Below, piece after piece: positions 21,889 to 35,247 of a stretch of 64,000 nucleotides of DNA. Positions within the stretch are counted from its first letter, which is position 1; the number at the start of each line of letters is the position of its first letter. Below the pieces are notes generated by a model that was given only the letters and a program-made list of their open reading frames with translations, ran no database searches and was not told the DNA's origin. The stretch lies in NCBI RefSeq assembly GCF_004020545.1, contig NZ_SAQE01000006.1; one strand, 5' to 3'. Source of the DNA: Mesorhizobium sp. GTDB lineage: Bacteria > Pseudomonadota > Alphaproteobacteria > Rhizobiales > Rhizobiaceae. The position numbers were made by a program, and so were the translations under genes.

Positions 21889-21953
21889 GTCTGGGCTTTT
21901 TCGGCCTGCCGGGGTCTAAGAAAATTCGATCTGAAGATCGTCGGCACATTGCC

Positions 21954-21982
21954 TTGACTTCGCGCCCCCGCCTCCCTTATAT
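21954..21982 (+). promoter_or_regulatory. Sigma70-type promoter for tRNA-Val
   Basis: TTGACT (21954-21959), 17-nt spacer, TTATAT (21977-21982), about 30 nt upstream of the mature tRNA 5' end. Confidence 0.65.
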
Positions 21983-22013
21983 CGCGGCTCGCTTCGGCCT
22001 TCGGGCAACGAGC

Positions 22014-22088
22014 GGGCGATTAGCTCAGCGGGAGAGCACACCCTTCACACGGGTGGGGTCGCAGGTTCAATCCCTGCATCGCCCACCA
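22014..22088 (+). tRNA. tRNA-Val (anticodon CAC), CCA encoded
   Basis: Manual cloverleaf: acceptor GGGCGAT/ATCGCCC, D-arm GCTC-AGCGGGA-GAGC, anticodon arm CACCC-TTCACAC-GGGTG, variable loop GGGTC, T-arm GCAGG-TTCAATC-CCTGC, discriminator A, then CCA. Confidence 0.92.
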
Positions 22089-22118
22089 TCCAACTGTCTG
22101 AGAATGTTGGATGGTTTG
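22086..22118 (+). terminator. Hairpin plus T-run directly after tRNA-Val
   Basis: CCATCCAAC-tgtctgagaat-GTTGGATGG (9-bp stem, beginning in the CCA end) followed by TTTGG. Confidence 0.6.
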
Positions 22119-22158
22119 GCCCTGCGAAATCTCTCCAAAATCTGAACGCTGCTGACCC

Positions 22159-22329
22159 CTAGATCAGCCCTCGGCGCACGTTCAAATATGTCACCGCCGT
22201 CACCAGTATGGCGCCGGTCATGAAATAGAGCGTGGCCAGGATGTTGCCGTGGTGAAAATGAATGCCGGCGAACAAGAGGGCCATGACGACAGCAAGAAAT
22301 GCGATGATGCGCGAGAATTCATCGGGCAT
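22159..22329 (-). CDS. Possible 56-aa two-helix small membrane protein (below the ORF-track size cut-off)
   Basis: My own translation gives MPDEFSRIIAFLAVVMALLFAGIHFHHGNILATLYFMTGAILVTAVTYLNVRRGLI*, two hydrophobic helices. The SD is weak (AGG). It overlaps only implausible track ORFs. Confidence 0.35.
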   Translation of the reverse strand: MPDEFSRIIAFLAVVMALLFAGIHFHHGNILATLYFMTGAILVTAVTYLNVRRGLI

Positions 22330-22467
22330 GGGGCGACCTGTGGAACGTAACGTGGATGGCCGCCCTCAATCGGCCGAGCGCTCAATAGAGCGGTTTCTCG
22401 ATTTCCGCAATCTCGATATGGAGCCCTGGCGACGCGGCACGCCTTCTGCGTGTAGGCTTGGACTCCC

Positions 22468-23994
22468 CTAAGCCAAATCCACTTCGACCCACAGCCCACC
22501 GGGACCACGGGCACGATCGCGCGGCGCACTGCGCACCGCCAGGATCGAGCCTGAGGGCGAAGCGAAAGCTGGCTTTCCATTGGCATTCGCCAGCCAGGCA
22601 TCGTCGGCCCGAATGACGCGGCCCTTGGTCTTCGCTTCGAGCGCGGTCAGGATCGCGCCATAGGGCATCTCGCCCCAATGGATCTTCAACGCATCCAGCT
22701 TGTTGGTGGGAACGAAAGCCGAGAGGTCCGGGCTCGTTATCAGGTCGAGTCCCTGTTTTTCCGGCGTGGCGTTCTGGCTGCCGTGATGCGCGACCTTCAG
22801 ATAGACGGTGCGCGCCAGAAGGTCGGCGGTGGTGACGGTCGCCGCTCCCACCTGGAACTTCAGATCCTTCCAGCTCAGCCAGTTGCCGATCTGGGCGTCG
22901 CCCGGGAACAGGAAGACGCGGCCGGTGTCGATGAATTCGAAGGCGAGCACCAGGCTGGTGTTGTTGACGCCGCGATCGAGCTGCAGCGCGAGGTCGGCGG
23001 CAATTGCCATCCAGTCGGCGTCGATGCGGCGCCAGGACTGGTCGCGATCCTCCATGGGTGCTGCGCCCGAAACCGACCCGGAATAGTGCTTGCTGGTAAA
23101 GGCGCCGATATCGACGGCCGGATCGCTGCCCTTGTCGCCGTTCAGCGCCGCGGAGAGCGGCGTGCCGATGTTGCGTTCGAAGGGACTGAGTTCGTCGATA
23201 TAGGTCGCATCGTCGGCCTGATTCATCTTCAGCCCGGATGCGAGCGCCCGTGCAAACGGCCCGCCGCTGGCGAGCGGAAACATCTCGCTCGCCTTTTCCT
23301 CCAGTCGGAGAGCTGCCTTGTCGCGCGGCGGACCGAGCACATAAATCCGAAGATTGGGCAGTTCCGCGATGGATTGCGGCGCCCCGCCGGGCTCGAAATA
23401 GGTGGGCGATGGTTTTGCGGACAACTTTGCCGCGGCATTGCGCGCCGAACGCACCCGTTCCCCGGCCGCGCCGAACTGGAAGCCGAGCACGGCCTGCAGG
23501 CCGTCGCGGACGCTCGCCATGTAAGGGTTGAGCCCCTGCATGCCGTCAAGCTTCTGGCCCGCGCCCTGCAGCGCGGCGAGCGCCTGGCCCTTGAACTTGT
23601 CGAGCTCCACGGCTTCGGCATCGGCGGGGTTTTCGGTCCAAGCCATCCAGACATCGCCGACTGCAAAATCCTTGAACAGGTCCTTCGCGGTCAGGAATCC
23701 CGAGACGTGGTCCCAGTGCTCATGCGTGACGACGAGCACATCGATCCTGCCGCCCGTCTCCTTTTTAAGGTCGGCGACGATGTCGGCAACGAGCGCCGGA
23801 CCGCCTGTGATCGATACGTGGATGCCGCAATCGATCAGCATGCGGAACAGCGAGCCATCCGGCTTCGTGAAGGTGAGCAGGTGGCAGTCGCCGATGCCTT
23901 GGCAATAGTGCCGGACGGTGACGGCCGACGCGTGCGTCGTCGCGGAAGCCGTGGTGTCAACGGGCCTTCTCTTTGCCGCGGGCCTTCTAGACAT
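22468..23994 (-). CDS. MBL-fold metallo-hydrolase, ComEC/Rec2-like subtype with a large internal insertion
   Basis: 508 aa from ATG 23994 (MSRRPAAKRRPVDTT...). It has the HxHxDH motif VVTHEHWDHVSGF, a late FPGDAQ and VAHHGSQN. The start lies inside the last codons of the upstream protease gene (CATGTCTAG, 8-nt overlap). Confidence 0.8.
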   Translation of the reverse strand: MSRRPAAKRRPVDTTASATTHASAVTVRHYCQGIGDCHLLTFTKPDGSLFRMLIDCGIHVSITGGPALVADIVADLKKETGGRIDVLVVTHEHWDHVSGFLTAKDLFKDFAVGDVWMAWTENPADAEAVELDKFKGQALAALQGAGQKLDGMQGLNPYMASVRDGLQAVLGFQFGAAGERVRSARNAAAKLSAKPSPTYFEPGGAPQSIAELPNLRIYVLGPPRDKAALRLEEKASEMFPLASGGPFARALASGLKMNQADDATYIDELSPFERNIGTPLSAALNGDKGSDPAVDIGAFTSKHYSGSVSGAAPMEDRDQSWRRIDADWMAIAADLALQLDRGVNNTSLVLAFEFIDTGRVFLFPGDAQIGNWLSWKDLKFQVGAATVTTADLLARTVYLKVAHHGSQNATPEKQGLDLITSPDLSAFVPTNKLDALKIHWGEMPYGAILTALEAKTKGRVIRADDAWLANANGKPAFASPSGSILAVRSAPRDRARGPGGLWVEVDLA

Positions 23995-26900
23995 GGTCGT
24001 CGTCTCCGTCGCTGGCATGCAGCAGGGCGAAGGGTTCCGACACCTCGCCGCCGAAATAGAGCGCTCTGAGCGGCGACAGATAGTTTGCCGCCATCGTCCC
24101 GGCCTGCCGCTTCTGCCGGTCCGCGCTGCCGGTGTTCTTGATGATCGAGTAGCGGATCTCCTCAAAGCCTTCGCGCGGGTCGATGATGATGGTCGCGCCG
24201 CCGCGGAACCAGAAGAAGCCGTCGCCCTTGTTCACGCCCTGCGGCGCAGCCGTGCCGTCGAAGGCGACGGGTATCCGCTGCTGGATAACGGCGACCACCT
24301 CGACGCGGAACGAACCGTCCGGCTCGACCCGCCGCGTTGGCCGCACGCTGTAGATGTCGAAAGTCGTCTCGCCCTTCTTCGGCGCGTGCATGACCGTGCC
24401 GTCCTCGTTGTAGCGCGGCAGGTCGGGCAGCAGGCCGAACTGCTTGTAGAGGTCCGGGTTGGACGCGAAGGCCTTGTGCATCGCCTTCCACAGCGCGTAG
24501 CGGTTCTTGTCATTGAGGGCGAAGATCTCGGCACGCTTCAGCTTCTGGTTCCAGCCGAGGTCGATCTTGCTCAGCAACCCGTTCAGCCAGGGTGGGGAAG
24601 GGTCTTCCGGCGCGCTCCAGGCGAGCGTCTCTTCCGAAATGGTGCGCACGTCGCGCGGCAAAAGCTTCCACTTGCGGAAGGATTCCAGGAACGCCAGGCG
24701 ATAATGGAGCGGATCGTCCGGATAGGCATCGCGGTCCGCAGTGATCAGCGCGCGCAGATACTCGCCGAAGGTGATGTCGACGGCCGGGCAATAATCGAGC
24801 GCGCGGATGCACATGGTGAGCATCTGCCCGGCGGTCTTGGCAACCTCGTCGGTAAGGCGCTCGACGAGGCTCGGATGCAAGGTGCCGGCCGGCAGGATAC
24901 CGGTACCGCCGGTGGCAAGCTGGATCAGATCGTCGGTGCGGCGGTCGGCGATGGCGATGAACGCCTGATAGACCGCGAAGACGAGGATCGAGCCGCGGTC
25001 ATGCGCCTCGAAGGTCTTGTCGTAGTCGAGGTCGGCCATGCCCGAGCCGCCATATTCGCGCAGTGGTCCGGCCCGGCCGCTGCCTTCACCGAACTGCTTG
25101 GCGATGCCGGAAAGCAGCGACGCCACCGACACATCGCCCCTCGCCTTGCCGATCTCGAAATTCACCAGCTCCTTCAGGGTAAAATGCTGGAACAGCGCAA
25201 CGATGTCGGCAAACGCCTCATGGAAGGCCGGAACGTCCGGATTGGACGCTTCATGGAAGCGGCGATGCAGCCCGTCGAGCAGCGCATGCGACATCTCATG
25301 CGCGATGATGTCGCTGGACAGGCAGGAAAACACCGTGGTCCCGGGTGTGGTGACGTCGCCCTCATTGCTGGTTGCCGGGAAATAGCCGAACAGCAGCGCC
25401 TTCTTTTCCGGGCTGTAGTAGGCGTTCTCGGCGCGCAGCGCGTGTGGATAGATGCGCAGGCGCGGCACATAATGGGCCTTCACCGTCATGTCGCCGCTGC
25501 GGCCGGGGGCTTGCGAATAGTGCGGCGCCCACAGCGCCCGCCGCCCAAGAGCGCGTTCGAAATGGCCGATCGTTGTCATGGCGACCGCGTAGACCATCTG
25601 CTGGTGAAACTTCGGATTGCCTTCCGAAGGCGACAGGCCGTCCTGGGCCAGGAGCACCTTGTCGTTGAGGTCGACAGGATCGTAGACGCGGTCGGAGGCC
25701 GGATCGACATCGACCACCTCGAGATATTCGCCGATCGGGCCTCCCAACAGTGGCTTGTCGGCCGATGGCTCGTCGTCCCAGGGAACCGAGAGCGTCGCCT
25801 GGTGGACCGACACCGAGTCCAATCGCTTGGCGACCGAAGGGTCGAGCGCGTAGATGCGCAGGCGCCGCTGCGGCGGCGGCAGCGGACGCGGCCGGCGCTT
25901 GATCGGCGCCGGGCCTGCAGCGGTAACGGCGACCGGCAGCGGCTTGGCGCCAGCCCTGCCCAGCAACCCTTCGAGAAAGGCCTTGAGCGGCTTCGACGGA
26001 TTGCCTTCGTCGAGAGCGGCCTCGAAATAGCGATTGCGCGCGGCGGCCGAGATCGCGGCCGGATCGCCATCCGGGTCGGCGATCGCCTGGTCGACGGAAG
26101 CGGTGGTTTGCGCCATCTGCATAAGCTCAAGCGCAAACATCCTTTGCCTTTGGACGGCGGCCGGTGGCTGTGCCGCCAGAGAATTGCCGCCGGTGAGCAG
26201 ATCCAGCCAGCTCCATGTGTAGGTGGCCAGCGGCAGTTTCCGGAGCTGGTTCTCAGCCGGTGGGGAGATCGCCAGCGCATCGAAGGCGCGAACTACCCCC
26301 TGCCCGATCTTCTCCAGCGTCTCGGCGGTGTTCATCTTCGGCGTGGATTTCTGCGCCACCTTGAACAGCGCGAAGCGGACGGCCTCGATGCGCATCCATG
26401 GCTGCGGATAAGTCTTCACGCGATCCCAGTGCTCGGCCAGCCAAAGCGCCGCGGCTGCCGCGATCTGCGGCGTCGCCGCCGACGTGCCGTTGCCATCCAT
26501 GTCGACGACCTTGGCGCAGTCGATCTCCGCCCAGGGCACGTTCGGCGTGTAGGCGCCGAGCGCCGACTTCATCTTCGATGGCGGCCCATAGTTGCCCTGC
26601 ATGGTGCCGAAGGCGAGCCCGGCATAGGCGCGGCCGTCGCCCATCACGCCGCATGCCGCCAGCACACGGTTGTAGCGCGCCGGATAAACGATGCTGCGCG
26701 GCGTGATGGCAAAGTTGTTGCCGGCCGCAGTGACCATGACCAGGCCGTGGTCGTAAGCGAGATTGACGGCATCGACCAGCGCTTGCGAGGCGAGGCCGCC
26801 CATGCTCATCGACAGCACCTGGGCGCCTTGCTGGCGCGCATACTCGATGCCTTGCACCATCGTGCCCGTCGTCAGCCGCACCACCCAGTCGGCGATGCGC

Positions 26901-27658
26901 ACCGGAAGGATCTTGGCCCGCGGGGCGCCGCCGACGAAGTCTGTGAAGCCCGGCCAATTTGGCGAGGTGCCGTCGAGCTTGTTGCCGGCAAGCAGGCTGA
27001 GCGTGCCGGTGCCGTGACCGCGATTGCTGGTGAGCGTGCCGGCAGGCGCATGATCGGTCGCGTTGTCCGGTCCGGTGCCGTCATCGACGAAATTGCGCTG
27101 CTTTGCCGCCAGAAGCCCGGCCGGCAATGTGCGATGTCCCGGATCGAAGCCGGTATCGAGATGAGCGATGGTGATGTTGGCCTGCTTGGCGCCGACCCTG
27201 GTGCGGGCGGCCACGAATTGGCTGAAATTCGGCCCGGCGTTCCAAGCGATACCGTCCCGGACGACCGCTTGTCCGCCGCTAGGATCCTGATCGTCGAAGG
27301 TGCAGGCAGGGCTGGCGCTCGCCGCCATGCCGCGATCGCCGTTGCCGTTCTTGTACTCCCATCGCTGTTCGATATCGGGCTCGACTGCCAGGACATCTGC
27401 GCCCGCCGCCGCGAAATCTCCGCCGCGGGCTGCAAGCTTGTGGGCATCGTCCCAGGGATTGTCCGAGCCTGCCGCCTTGGCGGAAACCCGCAGCCAGGTC
27501 GCGCCACGGTCCCCCGCTGCCCCGTAGTCAGCGCCGGACGCACCCGGCGGCAGGGTCAGGATCGGTTCGGCATCGACGCTCTCTATCCCAAGCGACCGGC
27601 CTCGCGCTGCAAGCCCGGTGCCATCACCGCGAACCTTGATCAGGAGTCCCCTCGCCAT
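23987..27658 (-). CDS. Fusion protein: subtilisin-like S8 serine protease + thermolysin-like (HExxH...ExxxD) zinc metalloprotease + unassigned C-terminal region
   Basis: 1223 aa from ATG 27658 (SD GGGGAGGGG). S8 motifs: AHLDTGF (Asp), NRGHGTGTLS (His), TAAGNN (oxyanion Asn), GNGTSAATPQIAAAAAL (Ser). A linker PIKRRPRPLPPPQRR follows, then IIAHEMSHALLDG and AFHEAFADIVALF. There is no hydrophobic N-terminal signal peptide. The 1300-aa opposite-strand ORF is an Arg/Ala-rich shadow. Confidence 0.85.
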   Translation of the reverse strand: MARGLLIKVRGDGTGLAARGRSLGIESVDAEPILTLPPGASGADYGAAGDRGATWLRVSAKAAGSDNPWDDAHKLAARGGDFAAAGADVLAVEPDIEQRWEYKNGNGDRGMAASASPACTFDDQDPSGGQAVVRDGIAWNAGPNFSQFVAARTRVGAKQANITIAHLDTGFDPGHRTLPAGLLAAKQRNFVDDGTGPDNATDHAPAGTLTSNRGHGTGTLSLLAGNKLDGTSPNWPGFTDFVGGAPRAKILPVRIADWVVRLTTGTMVQGIEYARQQGAQVLSMSMGGLASQALVDAVNLAYDHGLVMVTAAGNNFAITPRSIVYPARYNRVLAACGVMGDGRAYAGLAFGTMQGNYGPPSKMKSALGAYTPNVPWAEIDCAKVVDMDGNGTSAATPQIAAAAALWLAEHWDRVKTYPQPWMRIEAVRFALFKVAQKSTPKMNTAETLEKIGQGVVRAFDALAISPPAENQLRKLPLATYTWSWLDLLTGGNSLAAQPPAAVQRQRMFALELMQMAQTTASVDQAIADPDGDPAAISAAARNRYFEAALDEGNPSKPLKAFLEGLLGRAGAKPLPVAVTAAGPAPIKRRPRPLPPPQRRLRIYALDPSVAKRLDSVSVHQATLSVPWDDEPSADKPLLGGPIGEYLEVVDVDPASDRVYDPVDLNDKVLLAQDGLSPSEGNPKFHQQMVYAVAMTTIGHFERALGRRALWAPHYSQAPGRSGDMTVKAHYVPRLRIYPHALRAENAYYSPEKKALLFGYFPATSNEGDVTTPGTTVFSCLSSDIIAHEMSHALLDGLHRRFHEASNPDVPAFHEAFADIVALFQHFTLKELVNFEIGKARGDVSVASLLSGIAKQFGEGSGRAGPLREYGGSGMADLDYDKTFEAHDRGSILVFAVYQAFIAIADRRTDDLIQLATGGTGILPAGTLHPSLVERLTDEVAKTAGQMLTMCIRALDYCPAVDITFGEYLRALITADRDAYPDDPLHYRLAFLESFRKWKLLPRDVRTISEETLAWSAPEDPSPPWLNGLLSKIDLGWNQKLKRAEIFALNDKNRYALWKAMHKAFASNPDLYKQFGLLPDLPRYNEDGTVMHAPKKGETTFDIYSVRPTRRVEPDGSFRVEVVAVIQQRIPVAFDGTAAPQGVNKGDGFFWFRGGATIIIDPREGFEEIRYSIIKNTGSADRQKRQAGTMAANYLSPLRALYFGGEVSEPFALLHASDGDDDHV

Positions 27659-27846
27659 GGCGCACCCCTCCCCGGAAATGGAATCATGGCGTCGGCCGTC
27701 GTCTCCAGTCAAGCCAAGTTTCAAGCCATGATTCGATCGGTCTATTTGCCACCAGGAAATCAAGCCGATTGTGTTTCGGCACGATATGCTTGGCGTCCGA
27801 AACATACATTCGGAAAATGACGATCGCGCCGAGTGACAGAGGCTTC

Positions 27847-27862
27847 TGTGATCGCCTTCACA
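27847..27862. promoter_or_regulatory. Perfect CRP-type box TGTGA-N6-TCACA in the divergent protease / crp-like intergenic region
   Basis: TGTGATCGCCTTCACA read directly from the sequence. Its centre is ~197 nt upstream of the protease ATG (27658) and ~340-395 nt upstream of the regulator start candidates. Confidence 0.65.
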
Positions 27863-28248
27863 TACGTCGGGCGAGCTTCACGCACAAATATTGCACCGGG
27901 TGGCACTGGCTTCTGCTTCGATGCACAGGTCCGACAAGGCTTCCGGCCTGAAAATGGGCCGTTCCTCGGCAAGGAATTTCGATCACCTAGCCATTTTCAG
28001 ATTTGCTGTCTGCGCGCGTAGGCACCTCCCACCGACGCGCGCGGACGGCGTTTCGAAGATCGATCGCGCTCCGCCAGGCGTGTCAGTCAATCAATTGCGG
28101 GGTCACCTGTTTTTCGAAGCAGGTTGGCGTCCGGGACTGCTGCCAGAGGCATGTCGCCCGGCGACTGGCGACCATGAACGGAGACGAAGCTATGATCGAG
28201 CATGCACTTGTCCTACAATTTCCCCTCAACGAGAGGCGGAATCGCATC

Positions 28249-28935
28249 ATGGCCACAGCCGGCATAGACGACAGGAGCGCCGTGCCGCGCCTGGCGCGGA
28301 TCGACCCGCGCCAGTTCGAGCTGCTGTTCGGCGGCTGCAAGGTCGAACGCTACGCCGCCGGTCAGCACCTGTTCGTTCAGGAGGATGCGTCCGACCGCAT
28401 CTATGGCGTGATGAGCGGCACCGTCGAAATCTCGCTCTATTCGCCGGGCGGACAGAAGCTGGTGGCCAATATCGAGCTCTCGCGCAGCCTTGTCGGCGAG
28501 ATCGGCGCCCTGGACGGACGCCCGCGCACGGCCACCGCCATCTGTCACACCGCTTGCGAGCTGGTTTCACTCAGCCGAACACAACTCTTTGATCGCATTG
28601 AAAAAAATCCGTCGCTGGCGCGTGCCATGATCGAACTGCTATGCGCGCGGCTGCGCTGGGTCAGCGGCGAACTAGGCGACCAGGCTTTCTTCGGCATCGA
28701 GGCCCGACTGGCGAAGCGGCTGGTGTTCCTCAGCGGTGTCATGGCAGACCCTGCCGGCTGGGTTCCGATCTCGCAGTCGGAGCTTGGCGAGTTCCTCGGC
28801 GCGACGCGCGAATCGGTCAACAAGACGCTCAACGACTGGCGCAACCGGCACATGATCGCCATCAAGCGCGGAGGGCTGCGCATCACCAACGCCGCCGCGC
28901 TGAACCAGATCGCCGAATCGCAGGACGACGACTGA
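28249..28935 (+). CDS. Crp/Fnr-family cNMP-binding transcriptional regulator
   Basis: cNMP-binding fold (YAAGQHLFVQEDASDRIYGVMSGTVEISLYSPGGQKLV...GEIGALDGRPRTATAI) plus a C-terminal HTH ISQSELGEFLGATRESVNKTLNDW with a CRP-like R-E pair. In-frame alternative starts exist at 28174 and 28192 (GGAG before 28192). Confidence 0.85.
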   Translation: MATAGIDDRSAVPRLARIDPRQFELLFGGCKVERYAAGQHLFVQEDASDRIYGVMSGTVEISLYSPGGQKLVANIELSRSLVGEIGALDGRPRTATAICHTACELVSLSRTQLFDRIEKNPSLARAMIELLCARLRWVSGELGDQAFFGIEARLAKRLVFLSGVMADPAGWVPISQSELGEFLGATRESVNKTLNDWRNRHMIAIKRGGLRITNAAALNQIAESQDDD

Positions 28936-28953: not shown

Positions 28954-31900
28954 TCAGAGCCGCGAAATCAGGTATCGCAGCGCGGACCGGCTCGGCATGA
29001 AGAAGTAGCCGCCGCCCTTCGTGGTGACGAATTGCGGCACGTCCTTGAGCATGGTGACCTTTTCCCATGATGGGATCGAGAACCGGCCGCCACCGTCACG
29101 CGCACCGATCGTCGGATCCTTTTCCGCGACCAGGCCCTGGAACGAGCTCGAGGAAACCCAGGTCTGCTGGATGAACTCGTACTGACGCTCGATGTCGGCG
29201 TTGAGGCACATGAAGAGCAGCCCCTTCTCGACCTTCCCGCTCCGGTCCTGCTTTTCATAGGTGCGGCCGACGCGCAGGATGCGGTGGCGCTTGCCGATCC
29301 TGATCTGCGTCTCGCGGTCCTCGCCAAGCGAATCGCGCGGATTGGAGCGGCGTATGTGCGAGCCGAGCGGGCAGCGATGCCCTTGCGGGTCTTCCACACC
29401 AAGCGCGAAATCATTGTCGGTGCCGCGGCCCGGGCGGCCGTCGGGGTTGCGCACCAGCGAACTGCCGTCCTGCCAGCGCCCCAGCATCTTGGCCGCCACC
29501 CAGCGCGGCGTGACGGCATCGTCGCCAGTCTCGCGCGCAGCCAGCGCGGCGGCATGCTTGCAGTAGTCGTTGAACAACTCGACATGCTGCTCGAACTGGC
29601 GCACGACGAGGAAGGAACCGTTGCGGCCGAAGTCGCGTGGCGGCGGAGGCTGACCGGGAATCTGCCGGTTCCGCCGCACCTGCGACAGGATGCCTATCCG
29701 ATCCTGCGCCGCCTGGACGGAGGGCGAGGCCGGATAAAACCCGTGCTCGTCGCGATAGCCGAACAGGAATTCGCCGGGCGCGACCAGATGCATCGGTGCG
29801 GCCCCCTTGTTGGCGCGCGACGTGCCCCTGACGATCGGTTGCGAGACACCGTCGGCGAAGCCGAAATGCTCATAGGCGCGCTGGCGCTCGGGCTTGCCGT
29901 TGTTGCCGATATGCTGGGATTTCACGCCCTCCTTCTTGGGCTCGCGGTTCACGACAAGCGGCAACTCGGCGACGATCTTCATCCCGGCGCCTGCCGTCTT
30001 TCGCTTCGCGGCGGTGACCTCGGCCTTGAGCGCGGCCGGCTCCTTGGCGTAGCAGATGACAACCGCGTCGACCGGCGTCTTGGCCGAGCCCCATTGCCAT
30101 TTGTCGGGCGCGTCCGGCCCTTGGTCGTCGAGGATGCGGCTGCGCTCAGGATTTCCCATGCCGTGACGAAAAGCGACCGGAAACGTGTCCAACGGATCAT
30201 CGTCGACGCCGCCCTCCAGCCCGAGCCGACGAAGGCCGTCGGGGCCGAAGGCGACTGTCATGGCCCGTCCGGCGGGCACGCCGTCGCCGAAGCTGGTTTT
30301 ATCGATGACGAAGTCCAGCCATGCCTTGCGTTGCATTGCCGGCAGATCCTCGGGCACCCGGATTGCCAGCATATGCCCGTAACCGAGCGCGCCGAAAGGA
30401 CCGAAGAAGATCGATTGGATCTCGCCGGCTTCCAGTTCTTCGAGAGGCGAAGGGGCCGGCTCGCGGCCGACGGTTTCCGCCGGCCTCGCCTGCGGCCGCT
30501 GCAACGAGCCGAACAGGCTCACCCAGTCGCGCGCCTCGTTGCCGATGGCCGAAGCCATGCCGCGCCTTATCCTGGAGTTGATGCGGATGCGGGTGGTGTT
30601 GAGATGCGGATAGGCGGAATACCAGAAGAGCGTCGGCACCTGCTGGCGCCGCGCCCAGCGCTTGAAGCGGTCGCCGTCGCGCGCGCCGTCGAGGAAGAGC
30701 CAGCGCGTGCGCGGATAACCTTCCGTGTTGCTCCACACCCCGGTCAGGCCTTCGGAGGCCTTGGCTATGAAGTCCTCCAGATAGCTTTCCCAGCTACCGC
30801 CGTAGTTGGAGAAGAACATGAGCTTGCCGGTACCCGGCAGCAGCACCCAACGCGCGAAGTGGATGGTGTTGATGGTGGCAAGGAAGCCCGGCTTGAACAC
30901 CTTCTGCGCCGATATCGAGATCAGGTAGAAGGTGAGCCTCAGCGCCAGCCGCCGCAAGGTGCCCGCCTTCATCGTCGAGATCGCGGTGAGATGGTTCTGC
31001 GCGCAGTGGTCCTCATTGGCGAGGATCTTGTCCAGGGCGCCTATGTCGACCGGCGTGCTCTGCGGCCGGTCCTTGTCCTCGAGGCGCCGCAGGCCGAGGA
31101 AGCACAAGCCGACGAACAGCAGGGCTATCGCCAGCAGCCCCAGAAGGGCCAGCAGAAGTGCGGTGCCGGCAATCGCGATGTTGGTGAAGGTGATGCCGTG
31201 GGGGTTTCCGAACACAAGCAAATAGGTCATGCGCCAGCAGGCAAGTACGACGATCGCGACGGTGACGAGCACTGCCGGCGCGAGCAACGTCGTGGTCAAG
31301 GCCCGCCACCAGCGGCCCGGCGGCCGCTCCAGCAGGCTTTCGGCCGGCTCGAAGGCCCAGCCGAATTGTCCCAGCGCCTGGGCATGGCGACGTGCCTCGG
31401 TAAGGACCGCAAGGGCGTTGCCGGTACCGGCGCGCGGCTTTTCGACGATCTCGCGCACACTGTCGGCAAGCCTGGCCTCGGCCAGGATGCGGCGCACCGA
31501 ATGGCCGGGCGTGCCCGAAAAAACCAGCCCCGCCGTGCTGCCGAAGGACGGCGATATTTCGATATGATGTTTCTTCAGGAAATCCTCCAGCGAGCCGCCG
31601 TCGGACAGGCCGCAAACATCCCTGAAAATCGGCCTCAGCCGGTGGCCTATGGCCTGCGTGATGGCGCCGATGACATCGTTGGTGCTGCCGTCGCCGGAGA
31701 TTTCGAACACGAGCGCCCCCGTGTCGAGGCCCGATCTCTCGTCCTTCCCGGTGGCGGCGACGGCCAGGCTGGTGAAATGTATCGATCCGACCTTGTCGAG
31801 CGCACCGCCCACCTCGTCGATCGCCGGATTGCCGAGGGCGCCGACCTTGTCGCGGACGGCGTCCAACGGCACGGCGCAGGTGATCGGGCAAACCACGGTG

Positions 31901-33234
31901 ACCATTGATTGGTCGACCGTGCGGCAAAGCGGTGAGCGCTCGAAATCGACCTTGAGGTTCGCTGGATAAGCGCCGACATAGGCCAATTTGCCGGCCCTGC
32001 CCCGGACGCGATTGAGCTTTGGCTTGCTGAACAGGGCGCGAACGCATTCGCCGATCTGTATCCGGGCGATCTCCGCACCGATGCACAAGTGAATGCCGTG
32101 GCCGAAAACCATGTAATCGCGGTGTGGCCGCGAGGTATCGAATTCTTTTGGCCGTTGCACGATTTCCGGATCGAACATCGCCGACAGCGTTGCCGGCATC
32201 ACGACCGTTCCCGCCTTGACCAGATGCTCGCGGCGCGTGCCCTGGCCGATGATCGCGTCACGCCTGGTGTAACGCCAGGGCCCGATCCAGATCGGCTTGA
32301 AGCGCATGGCTTCGAGTATCGCCCTGTCGAGCTTGTCGATGCTGTCCTCGGCAAGCGCCGCATCGACGGCCTGCCGCGCATCGGTGCGCGACAGGATCAC
32401 GTCCAGGCAATTGCCCCCGGCAAGCACGTTGGTCGGCACGAAGCCGGCGATCATGCCGAGCATGATGGAGTGGATATCGGGCAGCGACAGACGCTTCTGA
32501 TCGAGCTGGGCGACAAGCCGCGCCAGCGGCCGGTCGTCTTTCTCCTGCCTGTTTCTGATCGCGGCGATCGAACGATCGATGACCTTGATCAGGCGATCTC
32601 CGCCGACGACCGCGAGTTGGCGCGTGGTGGCGTCGGCAAACGGATCGGAGAAGAACAGCGCGCTGAGCGCGATCGACCAGTCGGCGAATTCGGTCTCGTC
32701 GTCGATCTCGAGGCCGAAATAGTCCCGGCAGATGCGCACCGGGACGATCTTCATCAGCCCGGCGACAGCATCGAAGCCCGGGGCGGCGCGGGTCATGATA
32801 TCGCGCGAATGGCGCTCGGCGATCGGCCTGACGGTGGTTTCGACCTGCGACGGCGGAAAGGCGCTGAGCACGGCGGACTTCATCTGCCGATACGCGGCGC
32901 CGTCCTGCATGCCGAGAATGAAGTTCGATCCCCTCGCCAGCTCGGTCATTTCCGGCCCGTATGGCGTCTCGAACTCGTCGCCGCGTTCCAATATGTCGCG
33001 GACGTCCACACCCTTGGTAACGAGGAGAAATCTGCTACCTATGGCGAGGTTCGGGTGGCAGCGCCGCAGCCAGGCCAGCCACCAATGAGGATGATCCTGC
33101 ACCAGGAACCTGGCTATGCGCGCCGACAGGCCCTTCTTGCGCAGCCGATCGATGTCGAAAGGCGGCATTGCCGACACGGGGCCTTGTTTTTTCTGGGCTT
33201 CCCAAATGCCTTTGAAATACTTCCAGTTGATCAT
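28954..33234 (-). CDS. Fusion hemoprotein: cytochrome P450 + two-TM hairpin + conserved unassigned domain + DyP-type peroxidase
   Basis: Uninterrupted 1426-aa ORF. P450: ExxR (LEAMRF) and Cys loop FGHGIHLCIGAEIA. TM helices: WWRALTTTLLAPAVLVTVAIVVLACW and IAIAGTALLLALLGLLAIALLFVGLCFLGL. Mid motif: TIHFARWVLLPG...FFSNYGGSWESYLEDFI. DyP: EHFGFADGVSQP, GSHIRRSNPRD, RILRVGRTY, LLFMCLNADIERQYEFIQQTW. Confidence 0.88.
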   Translation of the reverse strand: MINWKYFKGIWEAQKKQGPVSAMPPFDIDRLRKKGLSARIARFLVQDHPHWWLAWLRRCHPNLAIGSRFLLVTKGVDVRDILERGDEFETPYGPEMTELARGSNFILGMQDGAAYRQMKSAVLSAFPPSQVETTVRPIAERHSRDIMTRAAPGFDAVAGLMKIVPVRICRDYFGLEIDDETEFADWSIALSALFFSDPFADATTRQLAVVGGDRLIKVIDRSIAAIRNRQEKDDRPLARLVAQLDQKRLSLPDIHSIMLGMIAGFVPTNVLAGGNCLDVILSRTDARQAVDAALAEDSIDKLDRAILEAMRFKPIWIGPWRYTRRDAIIGQGTRREHLVKAGTVVMPATLSAMFDPEIVQRPKEFDTSRPHRDYMVFGHGIHLCIGAEIARIQIGECVRALFSKPKLNRVRGRAGKLAYVGAYPANLKVDFERSPLCRTVDQSMVTVVCPITCAVPLDAVRDKVGALGNPAIDEVGGALDKVGSIHFTSLAVAATGKDERSGLDTGALVFEISGDGSTNDVIGAITQAIGHRLRPIFRDVCGLSDGGSLEDFLKKHHIEISPSFGSTAGLVFSGTPGHSVRRILAEARLADSVREIVEKPRAGTGNALAVLTEARRHAQALGQFGWAFEPAESLLERPPGRWWRALTTTLLAPAVLVTVAIVVLACWRMTYLLVFGNPHGITFTNIAIAGTALLLALLGLLAIALLFVGLCFLGLRRLEDKDRPQSTPVDIGALDKILANEDHCAQNHLTAISTMKAGTLRRLALRLTFYLISISAQKVFKPGFLATINTIHFARWVLLPGTGKLMFFSNYGGSWESYLEDFIAKASEGLTGVWSNTEGYPRTRWLFLDGARDGDRFKRWARRQQVPTLFWYSAYPHLNTTRIRINSRIRRGMASAIGNEARDWVSLFGSLQRPQARPAETVGREPAPSPLEELEAGEIQSIFFGPFGALGYGHMLAIRVPEDLPAMQRKAWLDFVIDKTSFGDGVPAGRAMTVAFGPDGLRRLGLEGGVDDDPLDTFPVAFRHGMGNPERSRILDDQGPDAPDKWQWGSAKTPVDAVVICYAKEPAALKAEVTAAKRKTAGAGMKIVAELPLVVNREPKKEGVKSQHIGNNGKPERQRAYEHFGFADGVSQPIVRGTSRANKGAAPMHLVAPGEFLFGYRDEHGFYPASPSVQAAQDRIGILSQVRRNRQIPGQPPPPRDFGRNGSFLVVRQFEQHVELFNDYCKHAAALAARETGDDAVTPRWVAAKMLGRWQDGSSLVRNPDGRPGRGTDNDFALGVEDPQGHRCPLGSHIRRSNPRDSLGEDRETQIRIGKRHRILRVGRTYEKQDRSGKVEKGLLFMCLNADIERQYEFIQQTWVSSSSFQGLVAEKDPTIGARDGGGRFSIPSWEKVTMLKDVPQFVTTKGGGYFFMPSRSALRYLISRL

Positions 33235-33313
33235 GCGCGTTCGGCCCCCCGGCTGTCCACGTCACTGCGATGCCGGCCGTCTCTTTGGCCTAGGTTTGGT
33301 TCGGTCCGGCGTA

Positions 33314-33329
33314 TGTGAATTCCGTCACA
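33314..33329. promoter_or_regulatory. Perfect CRP-type box TGTGA-N6-TCACA upstream of the P450-DyP gene
   Basis: TGTGAATTCCGTCACA read directly, in the 119-nt gap between the cyclase stop (33354) and the P450-DyP ATG (33234). Its centre is ~88 nt upstream of the ATG. Confidence 0.7.
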
Positions 33330-33353: not shown

Positions 33354-35135
33354 TCATGCAATGGACTTGGCTTGGTCGAAATTGGCGATCAGGAAGTTGT
33401 TTTTTGCCGCGTCTACGAACGGTATCCAGCGAATTCTCTGCTCGGAAAAGTCGGGATGTCTGGTCGCGAAAATGGCAAGTTCCCGCTTGGCCTCGTCGCG
33501 GCGGCCGCTTCGCATCAAGGCGCCGATCTTGAGAAACCTGGCGTAGAAATAGCCCGGCGAAAGGTTGAGCGAGCGATCGGCAATTGCAATTGCCGCGGGC
33601 CAGTCCTCGACGAAGCAGTATGCGGCGGCCAGTTCCCCAAGATTGTGGAAGCGGTAGAGGTCGAACGGGCTGAGCCGCTCAGTATCCAGGAAGAACGGGA
33701 TCGCGCCTGCGGCATCGCCGAGCAGCAGGCGCGCGCTGCCCATTGCCGAGCGGGCGAAAGCAAAGCTCGGATTGATGTGGATCGCTTCGGCCAGATGCTC
33801 GGCGGCCGACGCCGGCTGGCCGCGCATGATGTCGGCCGCGCCAAGATAAGCGTGCGGGCGCGCGTCGAGGCTGTCCATCAGAAGCGCTTTGCGCGCCAGC
33901 GCCTCGACCTTGTCCAGGTCGTCGCTGTCGCCGAAGCGCAGCCAGGCCCGCCAAAAATACCACCATGCCAGTTCGTTCAGCACGGCGCTGGAATTCGGAT
34001 CCTCCTGGTAGGCCTTGTCGAAGAATTCGAGTGCGATTTCCGTGTCGCTTCGCGTGCGCCTGTTCATGTGCCAGCGGCCGCGCCGCACCAATTGCCAGGT
34101 CTCGAGACTCTCCCATGGCACCTGGAAGGTCCGCACCTGCTCGGCCCGGTCGACTTCCTTGTCGAGGATCGAGACGATCTCGGAGCCGATCTGGTCGCGC
34201 AGGCTGAAGATATCGACGAGGTCGCGGTCGAAGCGCTGTGACCAGACGAGGCGCCCGTTCGACGTATCGGTGAGCGAGGCATTGAGGCGTATCTGCCCGT
34301 TGTGGCGCGCCAGCGTGCCGCTGACGATGTAGCGCGCGCCGAGCGCATTGCCGATGAGCCTGGTCCCGAGGCTGTCGTCGCGGAACTGGAAGCTTGAGCC
34401 CTTGGCGATCACCGAAAGCCAACGGGTATTGGAGAGGCCATAAATGATATCCTCGGCGATACCATCGGCCATGTATTCGACATCGGGCTCGCTTCCGTCG
34501 CCCTGGAACGGCAGCACCGCGATTGCCGGCGGTCCCTTGGCAGCGGGTTTGTAGTGACCGGGCGCTGTGGGGATGGCGGCCAAGGGAGCCGCCATCGCGG
34601 CACCGTTGCCATCGCGCCCGGCTATCAGGACGCGCACCGGCAACGCGATGTTCTTCAGCATGAACTCGCCGAGATCGGTGAAATTCGCTGCCGTCTTGTC
34701 CTTGACGTGATGCCAGGTCGTCTCGGAAATGGCGAGGCCGTCATGCGGGGCGAACTCCTGGAGCCGGGCGGCAATGTTGACGTCGTCGCCATAGAGGCGG
34801 CCTTCGCGGACGATGACGTCGCCTGTGTTGATCCCGGCCCGGAACGGCATGCGCATCTCTTCGGCGACCGAGGCATTGAGTGCCATGATCCGATCCTGGA
34901 AATCGAAGGCCGCGCGCAAGGCTTCGATCGGATTGCCGAATTCGGCCATGATGCTGTCGCCGGCGACGCCAAAGGTGCGGCCGCCAAAGGCGCCGCAGCT
35001 GTCGGTGATGATATCGCGCCTTTCCTCGAAGGCCGCGACGGCAAGTTCGTCATCGATTCCCATCAGCCGTGAAAAGCCCACGGCGTCGATAGAAATGATG
35101 GTCGCGAGCTGACGGGTATAGTTCCGTTCAGCCAT
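33354..35135 (-). CDS. Class III adenylate/guanylate cyclase with C-terminal TPR region
   Basis: 593 aa from ATG 35135: MAERNYTRQLATIISIDAVGFSRLMGIDDE...FGVAGDSIMAEFG...GINTGDVIV...YGDDVNIAARL (CYCc motifs), followed by a long helical-repeat/TPR-like C-terminal half. Confidence 0.85.
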   Translation of the reverse strand: MAERNYTRQLATIISIDAVGFSRLMGIDDELAVAAFEERRDIITDSCGAFGGRTFGVAGDSIMAEFGNPIEALRAAFDFQDRIMALNASVAEEMRMPFRAGINTGDVIVREGRLYGDDVNIAARLQEFAPHDGLAISETTWHHVKDKTAANFTDLGEFMLKNIALPVRVLIAGRDGNGAAMAAPLAAIPTAPGHYKPAAKGPPAIAVLPFQGDGSEPDVEYMADGIAEDIIYGLSNTRWLSVIAKGSSFQFRDDSLGTRLIGNALGARYIVSGTLARHNGQIRLNASLTDTSNGRLVWSQRFDRDLVDIFSLRDQIGSEIVSILDKEVDRAEQVRTFQVPWESLETWQLVRRGRWHMNRRTRSDTEIALEFFDKAYQEDPNSSAVLNELAWWYFWRAWLRFGDSDDLDKVEALARKALLMDSLDARPHAYLGAADIMRGQPASAAEHLAEAIHINPSFAFARSAMGSARLLLGDAAGAIPFFLDTERLSPFDLYRFHNLGELAAAYCFVEDWPAAIAIADRSLNLSPGYFYARFLKIGALMRSGRRDEAKRELAIFATRHPDFSEQRIRWIPFVDAAKNNFLIANFDQAKSIA

Positions 35136-35247
35136 GGTTGAGCCCCCGGTCCCTGCTTTCGGTCCAGAACAGGCGACTTCCGCTGGAAAAAGCACTTCGC
35201 CGTTTGCCGACAAAACAATCCCCGGCAGGCTCGGCGCGCCGTTGCCA

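What the first reader, a model, noticed from the sequence alone, without database searches (positions are those of the whole stretch)
27847..27862. Second perfect CRP box in the 590-nt divergent region between the protease-MBL operon and the crp-like gene
TGTGATCGCCTTCACA is centred about 197 nt from the protease ATG and 340-395 nt from the regulator start candidates. The surrounding 27.66-28.25 kb stretch looks AT-richer than the flanking genes. It also holds an 8-bp-arm hairpin (TGTTTCGG-N17-CCGAAACA, 27772-27804). The site could drive the protease-MBL operon, autoregulate the regulator, or both.
Basis: partly seen in the sequence, partly recalled or inferred. Interest (0 to 1): 0.62.

Follow-up and report, generated by a model that had tools for sequence, protein, structure and literature searches.

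The report
Conserved two-way CRP-type operator in Mesorhizobium
The 16-bp palindrome is a real, strongly conserved binding site for the neighbouring cyclic-nucleotide-sensing regulator; it faces both a swappable protease cassette and a previously unnoticed structured RNA upstream of the regulator gene, but it remains an ordinary kind of site.

Summary
TGTGATCGCCTTCACA lies at 27847-27862. It is one of only two perfect TGTGA-N6-TCACA sites in 64 kb (0.03 expected). The other site (33314-33329) precedes a 1426-aa P450-DyP gene and follows a cyclase-TPR gene.

Across 80 orthologous Mesorhizobium-group loci, 123 of 130 perfect sites fall at these two positions. Half-sites never change while spacers vary about 25 ways. 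The adjacent regulator has an intact cNMP-binding domain and an RESVNK recognition helix, like GlxR and M. tuberculosis Crp (RETVNK). It is unlike S. meliloti Clr.

The box is not protease-specific. All 34 loci with the protease have it, about 200 nt from the ATG, with a -10-like GATTGT at class II spacing. So do 25 loci that lack the protease, and deletion breakpoints stop at the box edge.

To its right lies an unannotated 80-nt element that ends in a 13-bp hairpin with an invariant CCUCCC (anti-Shine-Dalgarno) loop. Pairing is 99.5% on the + strand and 87% on the minus strand. The regulator also has its own conserved proximal promoter.

Best reading: a bidirectional operator of a local cNMP module. 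No transcript or binding data exist. This is a new member of a known kind, of moderate interest.

The parts
27847..27862 (.). Box 1: perfect TGTGA-N6-TCACA palindrome, the finding itself. Proposed operator of the adjacent Crp-family regulator.
   Evidence: It is perfect in 59 of 80 orthologous loci, with invariant half-sites and about 25 spacer variants.
33314..33329 (.). Box 2: second perfect site (TGTGAATTCCGTCACA). It lies 25 nt after the cyclase stop codon, and its centre is 87.5 nt upstream of the P450-DyP ATG.
   Evidence: It is perfect in 61 of 70 loci, 76.5-88.5 nt (median 86.5) from the ATG. It is followed by an almost invariant TACGCCGGACCGATGCAAACCTAGGCCA.
28249..28935 (+). Crp-family regulator, 228 aa: cNMP-binding domain, HTH_Crp_2 domain, recognition helix TRESVNK.
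   Evidence: Pfam. Homolog lengths fix the start. T186, R187, E188, S189 and N191 are invariant in the alignment. The closest solved relatives are GlxR, Clr, M. tuberculosis Crp and E. coli CAP.
27975..28055 (+). Conserved non-coding element of about 80 nt: TTTCGATCACCTAGCCATTTTCAGATTTGCTG followed by a hairpin. The stem is 28005-28017 paired with 28037-28049. The loop holds an invariant CCTCCC at 28025-28030. Proposed RNA, either a box-dependent small RNA or the leader of the regulator mRNA.
   Evidence: Footprint alignment. There are 13 pairs, 99.5% paired, with 9 double-change cells against 1.6 in shuffles. Pairing is 99.5% on + against 87% on the minus strand. The covariance model finds one copy per locus, 58.7-104.5 bits on + against 23 bits or less on the minus strand. 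No Rfam match.
27884..27891 (+). Weakly conserved -10-like stretch (ACAAAT / AAATAT). It would put box 1 at about -41.5 to -43.5 of a rightward promoter.
   Evidence: Box-anchored profile gCGCgcAgaTa, with no indels over the first 40 nt or so in 66 distinct sequences, including loci without the protease. L065 has CATTAT at the same spacing. Inference only.
27820..27825 (-). -10-like GATCGT (GATTGT in most relatives) on the minus strand. It would put box 1 at -41.5 of a leftward promoter for the protease-MBL operon.
   Evidence: Box-anchored profile GCGATTGT at positions 20-27 after the box. It is strongly conserved where the protease is present, and also in L059/L060. Inference only.
28192..28219 (+). 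Regulator-proximal promoter-like element P1: ATGATC (TTGATC in relatives), 16 nt, TACAAT. Then GAGAGG and the ATG at 28249.
   Evidence: It is conserved in all loci inspected, including those without box 1 or the hairpin.
23987..27658 (-). S8 subtilase-domain protein, 1223 aa, with an internal HEMSH...HEAFAD metalloprotease-like motif. First gene of the leftward cargo operon.
   Evidence: Peptidase_S8, 2e-26. Translation. Subtilisin-type matches in PDB. No PADLOC hit.
22468..24009 (-). Metallo-beta-lactamase-fold protein, 513 aa. Its start overlaps the end of the S8 gene by 23 nt.
   Evidence: Lactamase_B. The N-terminus resembles the MBL proteins LmuA, Avs1a and 6A-MBL, far below the family cut-offs.
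28954..33234 (-). Fusion of cytochrome P450 (N-terminal) and DyP-type peroxidase (C-terminal), 1426 aa. It is the near-universal partner of the regulator and the presumed target of box 2.
   Evidence: Pfam and NCBIfam. Syntenic in 70 of 80 loci.
33354..35213 (-). Class III adenylate/guanylate cyclase domain followed by TPR repeats, 619 aa. Presumed source of the cyclic nucleotide.
   Evidence: Guanylate_cyc plus TPR. PDB match 3mr7. Present in 72 of 80 loci.
22014..22088 (+). tRNA-Val(CAC). It marks the left edge of the variable slot whose right edge is box 1.
   Evidence: ARAGORN. Slot boundaries from blastn.
27772..27804 (.).
   Evidence: Present but not conserved beyond the nearest relatives.

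Best explanation
Box 1 is the operator of the adjacent Crp-family cyclic-nucleotide receptor. It belongs to a compact local module made of four parts: a TPR-cyclase, the regulator, and two perfect TGTGA-N6-TCACA boxes.

Box 2 controls the P450-DyP gene. Box 1 is a shared, bidirectional site.

- **Rightward.** It serves a promoter about 42 nt away. The transcript carries a conserved hairpin that displays an anti-Shine-Dalgarno CCUCCC loop. This transcript is either a small RNA or the long leader of a second, cNMP-dependent mRNA for the regulator, which would make a feedback loop. This rightward unit is the part that is always kept.
- **Leftward.** Where a cargo operon occupies the slot between tRNA-Val and the box (here S8 protease plus MBL), the same bound dimer sits at about -41.5 of a divergent promoter and controls that operon.

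**Shown:** the site exists, is conserved, is specific in position, and travels with the regulator, the cyclase and the RNA element. The regulator's helix is of the TGTGA-reading type.

**Inferred:** binding by this regulator, the transcription start sites, the direction and sign of control, and that the element is made as RNA.
For: 1. **Statistics.** The window has 2 sites against 0.03 expected. In 1.545 Mb of 80 loci, 61 of 130 perfect sites lie 0-750 nt upstream of the regulator and 62 lie upstream of P450-DyP; only 7 lie elsewhere.
2. **Footprint.** Half-sites are invariant and the spacer varies, while neighbouring intergenic DNA becomes unalignable.
3. **Cognate reader.** The regulator has cNMP_binding and HTH_Crp_2 domains. 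Its helix is GATRESVNKTL against GlxR GASRETVNKAL; Clr has GASRPKVNRAI. GlxR binds TGTGANNTANNTCACA (PMC4254451).
4. **Independence from the protease.** 25 of 46 loci without S8 keep a perfect box and 5 more keep a one-mismatch box. Homology resumes at w27845, 27839 or 27823 after the deletion. L005 and L022 keep different gene remnants, so the deletions were independent.
5. **Rightward unit.**
   - The right flank is conserved with no indels in all groups.
   - The 80-nt element and hairpin have 13 pairs, 99.5% paired. Compensatory cells number 9 against 1.6 in shuffles. G-U pairs make the fold strand-specific.
   - Lineages that lack this element but keep a box have different hairpins carrying CCUCCC. 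In L065/66 these come with CATTAT at class II spacing and a stem-U5 terminator. The background chance of CCTCCC in 160 nt is 0.034.
6. **Leftward unit.** The box is about 200 nt from the S8 ATG (179.5-215.5, one outlier) while its distance to the regulator ATG varies from 182 to 520 nt. GCGATTGT is conserved at class II spacing. In L054 a different cargo operon starts 200.5 nt from the box.
7. **Precedent.** S. meliloti Clr-cNMP directly activates the small RNA gene SMelC181 (PMC10127613).
Against: - No transcript, start-site or binding data exist. RNA-seq look-ups returned nothing usable.
- The rightward -10-like sequence is poor in the window's own clade: C or G where the key -11 A should be.
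- In the window lineage the hairpin is not followed by a U-run, so it does not look like an intrinsic terminator. Small RNA versus leader is therefore open.
- The regulator has its own conserved promoter P1, so autoregulation through the box is not required.
- In L054 the leftward -10-like TAAAAT/ATAATG lies closer to the box, which would suggest repression rather than activation there.
- Mesorhizobium genomes encode other Crp/Fnr paralogs, and one of them could be the true binder.
- The 80 loci are related species, so part of the conservation reflects shared ancestry.
Confidence: 0.6

Rival explanations
1. The box serves only the protease-MBL operon. Its presence in loci without the protease is a decaying relic.
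For: All 34 of 34 protease loci have it. The distance to the ATG is nearly constant at about 200 nt, and GATTGT is conserved at class II spacing.
Against: - 25 loci without the protease keep a perfect 10 of 10 half-site match after at least three independent deletions, while the DNA to the left of the box is replaced. A relic would have accumulated mismatches.
- The right flank and the RNA element stay conserved in those loci.
Confidence: 0.07
2. The box works only rightward. It drives a cNMP-dependent distal promoter whose long leader, hairpin included, runs into the regulator gene. That would be pure autoregulation, with the protease using its own promoter (CTTGAC at 27712-27707).
For: - The box, the RNA element and the regulator travel together.
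- There is no terminator-like U-run after the hairpin in the window lineage.
- A promoter-like TTGACT-18-CATGAT lies next to the protease start, inside an invariant AGTCAAGCCA block.
Against: - The left flank is conserved up to about 50 nt from the box, but only where the protease is present, and it includes a -10-like element at exact class II spacing.
- The distance to the cargo ATG is 200 nt for two unrelated cargo operons.
- L065/66 have a clear terminator after their hairpin, which argues for a separate small RNA there.
Confidence: 0.17
3. The site is bound by a different, global Crp/Fnr-family protein of Mesorhizobium, not by the adjacent regulator. Co-location is incidental.
For: Binding was not tested. 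Rhizobia carry many Crp/Fnr paralogs (established knowledge). Only 1.5 Mb around this locus was sampled, so a genome-wide regulon cannot be excluded.
Against: - 123 of 130 perfect sites in the sampled DNA lie at the two positions that flank this regulator's module.
- Of the regulator copies with full flanks that lack P450-DyP and the cyclase (L061, L063, L076, L080), none has a perfect box within 800 nt upstream; L080 has a one-mismatch site.
- The regulator's helix matches the TGTGA-reading class, whereas FixK/Fnr-type paralogs read TTGAT-N4-ATCAA (established knowledge).
Confidence: 0.1
4. The palindrome is a chance match, or part of a mobile-element or att-site scar left by island insertion next to tRNA-Val.
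For: The tRNA-Val anticodon arm contains CCTTCACA, the same 8-mer as the right half of the box. The box lies exactly at the edge of a variable 5.4-kb segment.
Against: - Alignment scores for tRNA against box flank, and flank against flank, lie within shuffle noise: 17 and 20 against a mean of 17.9 and a maximum of 26.
- There is no integrase in the cassette.
- Box 2 has the same motif and the same TACGyCGG flank away from any tRNA.
- Distant loci without the tRNA nearby still have the box.
Confidence: 0.02

Closest known systems
CRP/CAP-type sites of E. coli CRP, C. glutamicum GlxR and M. tuberculosis Crp (TGTGA-N6-TCACA)
   Same: - The 16-bp palindrome is the same.
- The regulator has the same two-domain build.
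- The R-E pair in the recognition helix is the same, with K at the third contact position as in GlxR and M. tuberculosis Crp (GlxR consensus in PMC4254451).
- One bound dimer activating two divergent promoters is known for E. coli CRP (own knowledge: El-Robh and Busby 2002).
   Different: - This looks like a local regulator with two dedicated sites beside its own gene and cyclase, not a demonstrated global regulator.
- It is only about 30% identical to the solved proteins (E about 1e-22 to 1e-17).
- Ligand identity (cAMP or cGMP) and binding are untested.
Sinorhizobium meliloti Clr module (cyaD1-clr-smc02177-smc02178)
   Same: A rhizobial Crp-like cNMP receptor is encoded beside a class III cyclase and a directly controlled target gene. 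Clr also directly activates a small RNA gene, SMelC181 (PMC5498481, PMC10127613).
   Different: - The Clr-box is TGTT-N8-AACA, or HGTYHCNNNNGRWACA. Box 1 has G where that consensus needs C or T at position 4.
- Clr's helix is RPKVNR, not RESVNK.
- The cyclase here has TPR repeats, and the target genes differ.
CRP-dependent small RNAs (CyaR in enterobacteria; SMelC181 in S. meliloti)
   Same: A CRP-family site sits directly upstream of a short non-coding transcript. By own knowledge (Papenfort 2008; De Lay and Gottesman 2009), CyaR uses a C-rich loop to mask Shine-Dalgarno sequences.
   Different: There is no sequence or Rfam similarity. Transcription is unproven. The window lineage lacks a clear terminator, so the RNA may instead be a leader.
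Alpha-proteobacterial anti-Shine-Dalgarno small RNAs (cuckoo family, NfeR1, AbcR1/2)
   Same: A stable hairpin presents a CCUCC-type loop, and the stems evolve by compensatory change while the loop is fixed (PMC4615179).
   Different: Cuckoo RNAs have 2-4 adjacent hairpins, each with CCUCCUCCC. Here there is one hairpin with CCUCCC, at a fixed genomic position beside a Crp-family gene, and no covariance-model match.

Membership tests
CRP/CAP-type operator (TGTGA-N6-TCACA class) | 16-bp palindrome with TGTGA and TCACA half-sites separated by 6 bp | tested here: met
   Perfect match at 27847-27862.
CRP/CAP-type operator (TGTGA-N6-TCACA class) | Half-sites under selection: conserved in orthologous regions while the spacer and flanks drift | tested here: met
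   59 of 80 loci are perfect, with about 25 spacer variants. 123 of 130 sites lie at two fixed positions.
CRP/CAP-type operator (TGTGA-N6-TCACA class) | A cognate regulator with a cNMP-binding domain and a CRP-type recognition helix (R-E-x-x-x-R/K) | tested here: met
   cNMP_binding plus HTH_Crp_2. TRESVNK is invariant and aligns with GlxR RETVNK.
CRP/CAP-type operator (TGTGA-N6-TCACA class) | Physical, cNMP-dependent binding of the regulator to the site | not testable with these tools
   Needs EMSA, footprinting or ChIP.
CRP/CAP-type operator (TGTGA-N6-TCACA class) | Site centred at a class I or class II position relative to a mapped transcription start | tested here: inconclusive
   No start-site data. 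-10-like hexamers at class II spacing: leftward GATCGT/GATTGT is good; rightward is weak in this clade but good in L065.
S. meliloti Clr regulon | Site fits the Clr-box HGTYHCNNNNGRWACA / TGTT-N8-AACA | tested here: not met
   Position 4 is G where the consensus needs C or T. Sequence, consensus from PMC5498481.
S. meliloti Clr regulon | Regulator shares the Clr recognition helix | tested here: not met
   RESVNK here against RPKVNR in 7pza.
Cuckoo / alpha-r14-type anti-SD small RNAs | 2-4 adjacent hairpins, each with a CCUCCUCCC loop | tested here: not met
   One hairpin with a CCUCCC 6-mer loop. No Rfam match at E up to 10. Family definition from PMC4615179.
Independent trans-acting small RNA gene | Own promoter, defined 3' end (intrinsic terminator), detectable transcript | tested here: inconclusive
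   The box plus a -10-like element could be the promoter. L065/66 have a stem-U5 terminator. The window lineage has only GUUUC after the hairpin. Transcript not testable.
Structured RNA element (any) | Helix kept by compensatory and wobble changes, specific to one strand | tested here: met
   99.5% of 741 cells are paired. 9 double-change cells against 1.6 in shuffles, with 0 of 500 shuffles reaching the observed value. Slid controls give 19-61%. Pairing is 87% on the opposite strand. The model scores 58.7-104.5 bits on + against 23 or less on the minus strand.
Known anti-phage defence systems (PADLOC models) | Component proteins match the system's models | tested here: not met
   S8, P450-DyP and the cyclase have no hit. 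The MBL protein matches only the N-terminal MBL part of LmuA and RTasMBL. The regulator matches only through its cNMP domain. NCBIfam scores are far below the cut-offs.

The most novel reading that the evidence does not exclude
The TPR-cyclase and the Crp-like regulator may form a cyclic-nucleotide-triggered transcription switch for swappable conflict or defence effector cassettes. These cassettes are inserted in the slot between tRNA-Val and box 1. Here the cargo is an S8 protease plus an MBL hydrolase; in M. caraganae-type loci it is trypsin-nuclease, EAD1-trypsin and nuclease proteins. In this reading, the divergently made anti-Shine-Dalgarno RNA acts as a brake on translation of the effector mRNAs, much like the RNA antitoxin of a type I toxin-antitoxin pair. 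Both cargo operons start with an unusually G-rich GGGGAGGGG Shine-Dalgarno about 200 nt from the box.
Probability: 0.12. Interest if true: 0.8.

Novelty: new member of a known kind. Interest (0 to 1): 0.5.

Why it matters
Taken alone, the box is a textbook CRP-type site, so the original finding is ordinary. What the follow-up adds:

- **A tractable module.** It is a very clean, self-contained cNMP module: cyclase, receptor, two dedicated operators, a P450-DyP fusion enzyme and an unannotated anti-SD RNA element. It is conserved across Mesorhizobium and neighbouring genera, and nothing appears to be published on it in the library searched. Rhizobia encode dozens of cyclases whose outputs are mostly unknown, so a module with obvious direct targets is easy to test.
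- **A candidate CRP-dependent RNA.** It would be one of the few CRP-family-dependent RNAs known (PMC10127613 notes how few there are).
- **Variable cargo.** The left side of the operator faces a variable slot holding protease and nuclease cargo typical of conflict systems. If the link is real, it would connect cNMP-dependent transcription to such systems.

Tried and rejected
- **RNA-seq evidence.** No RNA run holds the window sequence. Runs found for the M. metallidurans locus are long, genome-like contigs that cover only the tRNA and the regulator coding region of other strains, so they say nothing about expression.
- **Rfam.** Searched at E up to 10 over 27600-28300: no match.
- **Second conserved helix.** By eye there seemed to be small covarying helices between the box and the big hairpin. 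RNAalifold on 26 diverse sequences supports only the main hairpin, so this is not claimed.
- **Intrinsic terminator reading of the big hairpin.** No U-run follows it in the window lineage.
- **Sigma-54 or ECF promoter readings of the conserved block.** Checked by eye. Spacing and conservation do not fit; rejected.
- **Leader peptide or N-terminal extension of the regulator.** The frame is open from 28003, but indels that are not multiples of three occur in relatives, and homologs start at MATAG/MSTA. Rejected.
- **att-site or tRNA-repeat origin of the box.** Scores lie within shuffle noise.
- **Cis pairing of the CCUCCC loop with the regulator's own Shine-Dalgarno.** That SD (GAGAGG, or UUGGGAA in relatives) is not conserved as a complement (by inspection). 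Not supported.
- **Literature on a P450-DyP plus cyclase plus Crp module.** Nothing relevant found. The M. huakuii small RNA survey does not mention Crp or cAMP.

Full report
**1. The observation**

The sequence TGTGATCGCCTTCACA lies at 27847-27862. A search for TGTGA-N6-TCACA on both strands of the 64-kb window finds two perfect sites. Dinucleotide-preserving shuffles give 0.03 on average, and none of 100 shuffles gave two. Allowing one mismatch adds no further site. The second site, TGTGAATTCCGTCACA, is at 33314-33329.

GC content drops to 0.52-0.54 over 27700-27999, against about 0.65 in the flanks.

- an S8 subtilase-domain protein (23987-27658, minus strand);
- a metallo-beta-lactamase-fold protein (22468-24009, minus strand);
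- a Crp-family regulator with cNMP_binding and HTH_Crp_2 domains (plus strand).

Homologs of the regulator are mostly 228 aa. This fixes its start at the ATG at 28249 and makes the divergent region 590 nt. The box centre is 196.5 nt from the protease ATG and 394.5 nt from the regulator ATG.

The 8-bp inverted repeat at 27772-27804 exists. Pairing is 7 of 8 only in L003 and L006, 6 of 8 or fewer elsewhere, and the segment is deleted in several loci.

**2.

The gene after the second box is a class III adenylate/guanylate cyclase with TPR repeats (33354-35213, minus strand). Box 2 lies 25 nt after the cyclase stop codon, and its centre is 87.5 nt upstream of a 1426-aa fusion of cytochrome P450 and a DyP-type peroxidase (28954-33234, minus strand). 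The regulator is therefore flanked by two perfect boxes and sits next to a cyclase. The organism is a Mesorhizobium.

**3. Comparative evidence for the box**

An alignment of the regulator with 15 homologs retrieved 80 loci from different species of Mesorhizobium and neighbouring genera.

- **Synteny.** The order regulator, P450-DyP, cyclase is kept in about 70 loci.
- **Position.** These loci total 1.545 Mb and hold 130 perfect sites. Of these, 61 lie 0-750 nt upstream of the regulator, 62 lie upstream of P450-DyP, and 7 lie elsewhere.
- **Box 1** is perfect in 59 of 80 loci. Five more have a single mismatch (TGTAAC...TTCACA).
- **Box 2** is perfect in 61 of 70 loci. Its centre is 76.5-88.5 nt from the P450-DyP ATG.
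- **Pattern of change.** The ten half-site bases never change in these sites, the six spacer bases take about 25 forms, and the surrounding intergenic DNA becomes unalignable in the more distant loci. That is the pattern expected of a protein-binding site under selection.

**4. Who binds it**

The regulator's recognition helix reads GATRESVNKTL. T, R, E, S and N are invariant across the family. The closest solved relatives are C. glutamicum GlxR (GASRETVNKAL), S. meliloti Clr (GASRPKVNRAI), M. tuberculosis Crp and E. coli CAP.

The R-E pair makes the base contacts to TGTGA in CAP (established knowledge from the CAP-DNA structures). GlxR binds TGTGANNTANNTCACA (PMC4254451). Clr lacks the R-E pair and binds TGTT-N8-AACA (PMC5498481).

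The phosphate-binding stretch GEIGALDGRPRTATA is intact.

Of the regulator copies with full flanks that lack P450-DyP and the cyclase (L061, L063, L076, L080), none has a perfect box within 800 nt upstream; L080 has a one-mismatch site.

I infer that the adjacent regulator binds both boxes. This was not tested.

**5. Which way does box 1 act? Leftward**

In loci with the protease, the box is about 200 nt from the protease ATG (179.5-215.5). The one outlier is L044 at 72.5, where the start is probably miscalled. Over the same loci the distance to the regulator ATG ranges from 182 to 520 nt.

Profiles anchored on the box, with no gaps allowed, show a conserved GCGATTGT on the minus strand at positions 20-27 after the box. 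In the window this is GATCGT at 27820-27825. That places a -10-like hexamer at -12 to -7 if the box is centred at -41.5, which is class II geometry.

All 34 loci with a near-full-length protease have the box.

**6. Which way does box 1 act? Rightward**

The protease-MBL pair is a 5.4-kb indel. In loci without it, homology to the window runs to w22412 and resumes at w27845, w27839 or w27823, which is at the left edge of the box. L005 keeps a fragment of the MBL gene and L022 keeps fragments of the protease gene. The clean junction of L014, L017 and L027 is a third form. The losses were therefore independent, and each spared the box.

In total, 25 of 46 loci without the protease keep a perfect box. 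In those loci nothing to the left of the box is conserved, while the right flank still is. The left neighbour there is only tRNA-Val. A function directed to the right is therefore required.

**7. What lies to the right**

The footprint alignment shows three things:
- a weakly conserved gCGCgcAgaTa at 27880-27892;
- a variable stretch;
- an almost invariant 80-nt block at 27975-28055.

The block is TTTCGATCACCTAGCCATTTTCAGATTTGCTG followed by a hairpin. The stem is 28005-28017 paired with 28037-28049. The loop holds CCTCCC at 28025-28030.

On 57 distinct sequences:
- The 13 pairs are 99.5% paired.
- 9 cells changed on both sides, against 1.6 in shuffles; 0 of 500 shuffles reached the observed value.
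- Slid controls give 19-61% pairing.
- There are 93 G-U cells, which would be A-C mismatches on the other strand. Pairing is 99.5% on the plus strand and 87% on the minus strand.

A covariance model finds exactly one copy per locus, always at this position. It scores 58.7-104.5 bits on the plus strand and at most 23 on the minus strand. Rfam has no match.

The distance from the box to the hairpin varies almost continuously from 89.5 to 166.5 nt. This argues against helical phasing with a promoter near the block, and for a promoter next to the box followed by a variable transcribed spacer.

Lineages that keep a box but lack this element have other structures carrying CCUCCC downstream of the box:
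- **L065/L066:** CATTAT at exact class II spacing, then a hairpin with a CUCCUCCCA loop, then a strong stem followed by UUUUU.
- **L059/L060:** CCUCCC followed by a hairpin.

The background chance of CCTCCC in 160 nt of these loci is 0.034.

**8. Small RNA or leader?**

In the window lineage the hairpin is followed by GGCGUUUC, not a U-run. The terminator scan does not flag it.

The regulator also has its own conserved promoter-like element: TTGATC-N16-TACAAT at 28192-28219, with the window reading ATGATC. It is followed by GAGAGG and the ATG. This element is present even in loci without box 1.

Two readings remain open:
- a box-dependent small RNA that ends near 28055;
- a box-dependent distal promoter whose leader runs into the regulator gene, giving cNMP-dependent feedback on top of basal expression from P1.

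The CCUCCC loop is complementary to GGGAGG, which occurs in the protease's Shine-Dalgarno (GGGGAGGGG). Such pairing is generic, and I could not show target specificity.

**9. The cargo slot**

tRNA-Val(CAC) lies at 22014-22088. The segment between it and the box varies among species:
- S8 plus MBL in the window and 33 other loci;
- nothing in many loci;
- a 9-kb operon in L054/55/57, encoding a trypsin plus Endonuclease_NS fusion, an EAD1 plus trypsin protein, a second Endonuclease_NS protein and two unknowns.

The first ATG of that 9-kb operon is 200.5 nt from the box and is preceded by GGGGGAGGGG.

The MBL protein's N-terminus weakly resembles the MBL proteins of Lamassu, AVAST type 1 and the 6A-MBL system. 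All matches are far below the family cut-offs.

This flavour of conflict-system cargo is the basis of the more novel reading. It is weak. P450-DyP, not the cargo, is the universal target, and neither the cyclase nor the S8 protein matches any defence model.

**10. Comparison with known systems**

The box works like, and meets the testable criteria for, a CRP/GlxR-type operator.

It is not a Clr-box and the regulator is not a Clr-type reader.

The module resembles the S. meliloti cyaD1-clr-smc02178 arrangement in logic: a cyclase, a receptor and an adjacent target. Clr also directly activates a small RNA, SMelC181, and its authors note how few CRP-dependent small RNAs are known (PMC10127613).

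The hairpin resembles the anti-SD loops of the cuckoo, NfeR1 and AbcR small RNAs. It fails the cuckoo definition of 2-4 hairpins with CCUCCUCCC loops (PMC4615179).

**11. Verdict**

The site is a real, conserved, probably bidirectional operator of a local cNMP module. Its constant partner is the rightward unit (RNA element plus regulator), not the protease. The kind of feature is well known, so this is a new member of a known kind.

The added value is the clean module, the unannotated strand-specific RNA element and the variable cargo. Everything about transcription and binding remains inference.

Noticed in passing
window 28954-33234 (minus strand): A 1426-aa single protein fuses an N-terminal cytochrome P450 to a C-terminal DyP-type peroxidase, with hydrophobic stretches between them. 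It is the near-universal neighbour of the regulator and follows box 2. No literature on such a fusion turned up in the library searched.
   Followed up: partly
window 22014-27846; L054:643-9657: The segment between tRNA-Val(CAC) and box 1 is a variable slot. It holds S8 plus MBL here, nothing in many species, and a 9-kb operon in L054/55/57 with trypsin-nuclease, EAD1-trypsin and a second nuclease. That cargo is typical of conflict systems.
   Followed up: partly
window 21932-22113 versus L022:8725-8903 and L027:9116-9297: A 180-bp segment containing the tRNA-Val gene is inverted relative to its flanks in two other species, at about 91% identity.
   Followed up: no
window 23987-27658 (minus strand), middle of the protein: Besides its S8 domain, the 1223-aa protease has an HEMSH...HEAFAD motif that looks like a zinc-metalloprotease site. 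No signal peptide is evident at the N-terminus. No Pfam model covers the C-terminal 800 aa or so.
   Followed up: no
L065:17506, L066:17513, L067:17427, L068:9609: In the Pseudaminobacter / M. alhagi group, a further perfect TGTGA-N6-TCACA lies about 600 nt beyond the start of the cyclase gene. The module may have a third operator there.
   Followed up: no
window 27948-27957 and 27991-28000: A perfect 10-bp inverted repeat (CTGAAAATGG / CCATTTTCAG) pairs part of the conserved block with upstream sequence. It is conserved in the window's clade and only partly in others. It did not emerge as a consensus helix.
   Followed up: partly
window 33290-33313 (minus strand, downstream of box 2) and 27984-27992: The invariant sequence after box 2 contains ACCTAGGCCA, and the conserved block before the hairpin contains ACCTAGCCA. 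The shared motif is unexplained.
   Followed up: no
L036:9748-9810: A 62-nt insertion sits immediately after the hairpin element (after GGCGTTTC). It marks the 3' boundary of the conserved element.
   Followed up: no
window 27707-27716: An invariant AGTCAAGCCA (CTTGAC on the minus strand) lies 50 nt upstream of the protease ATG. With CATGAT 18 nt further on, it looks like a second, box-independent promoter for the protease.
   Followed up: partly
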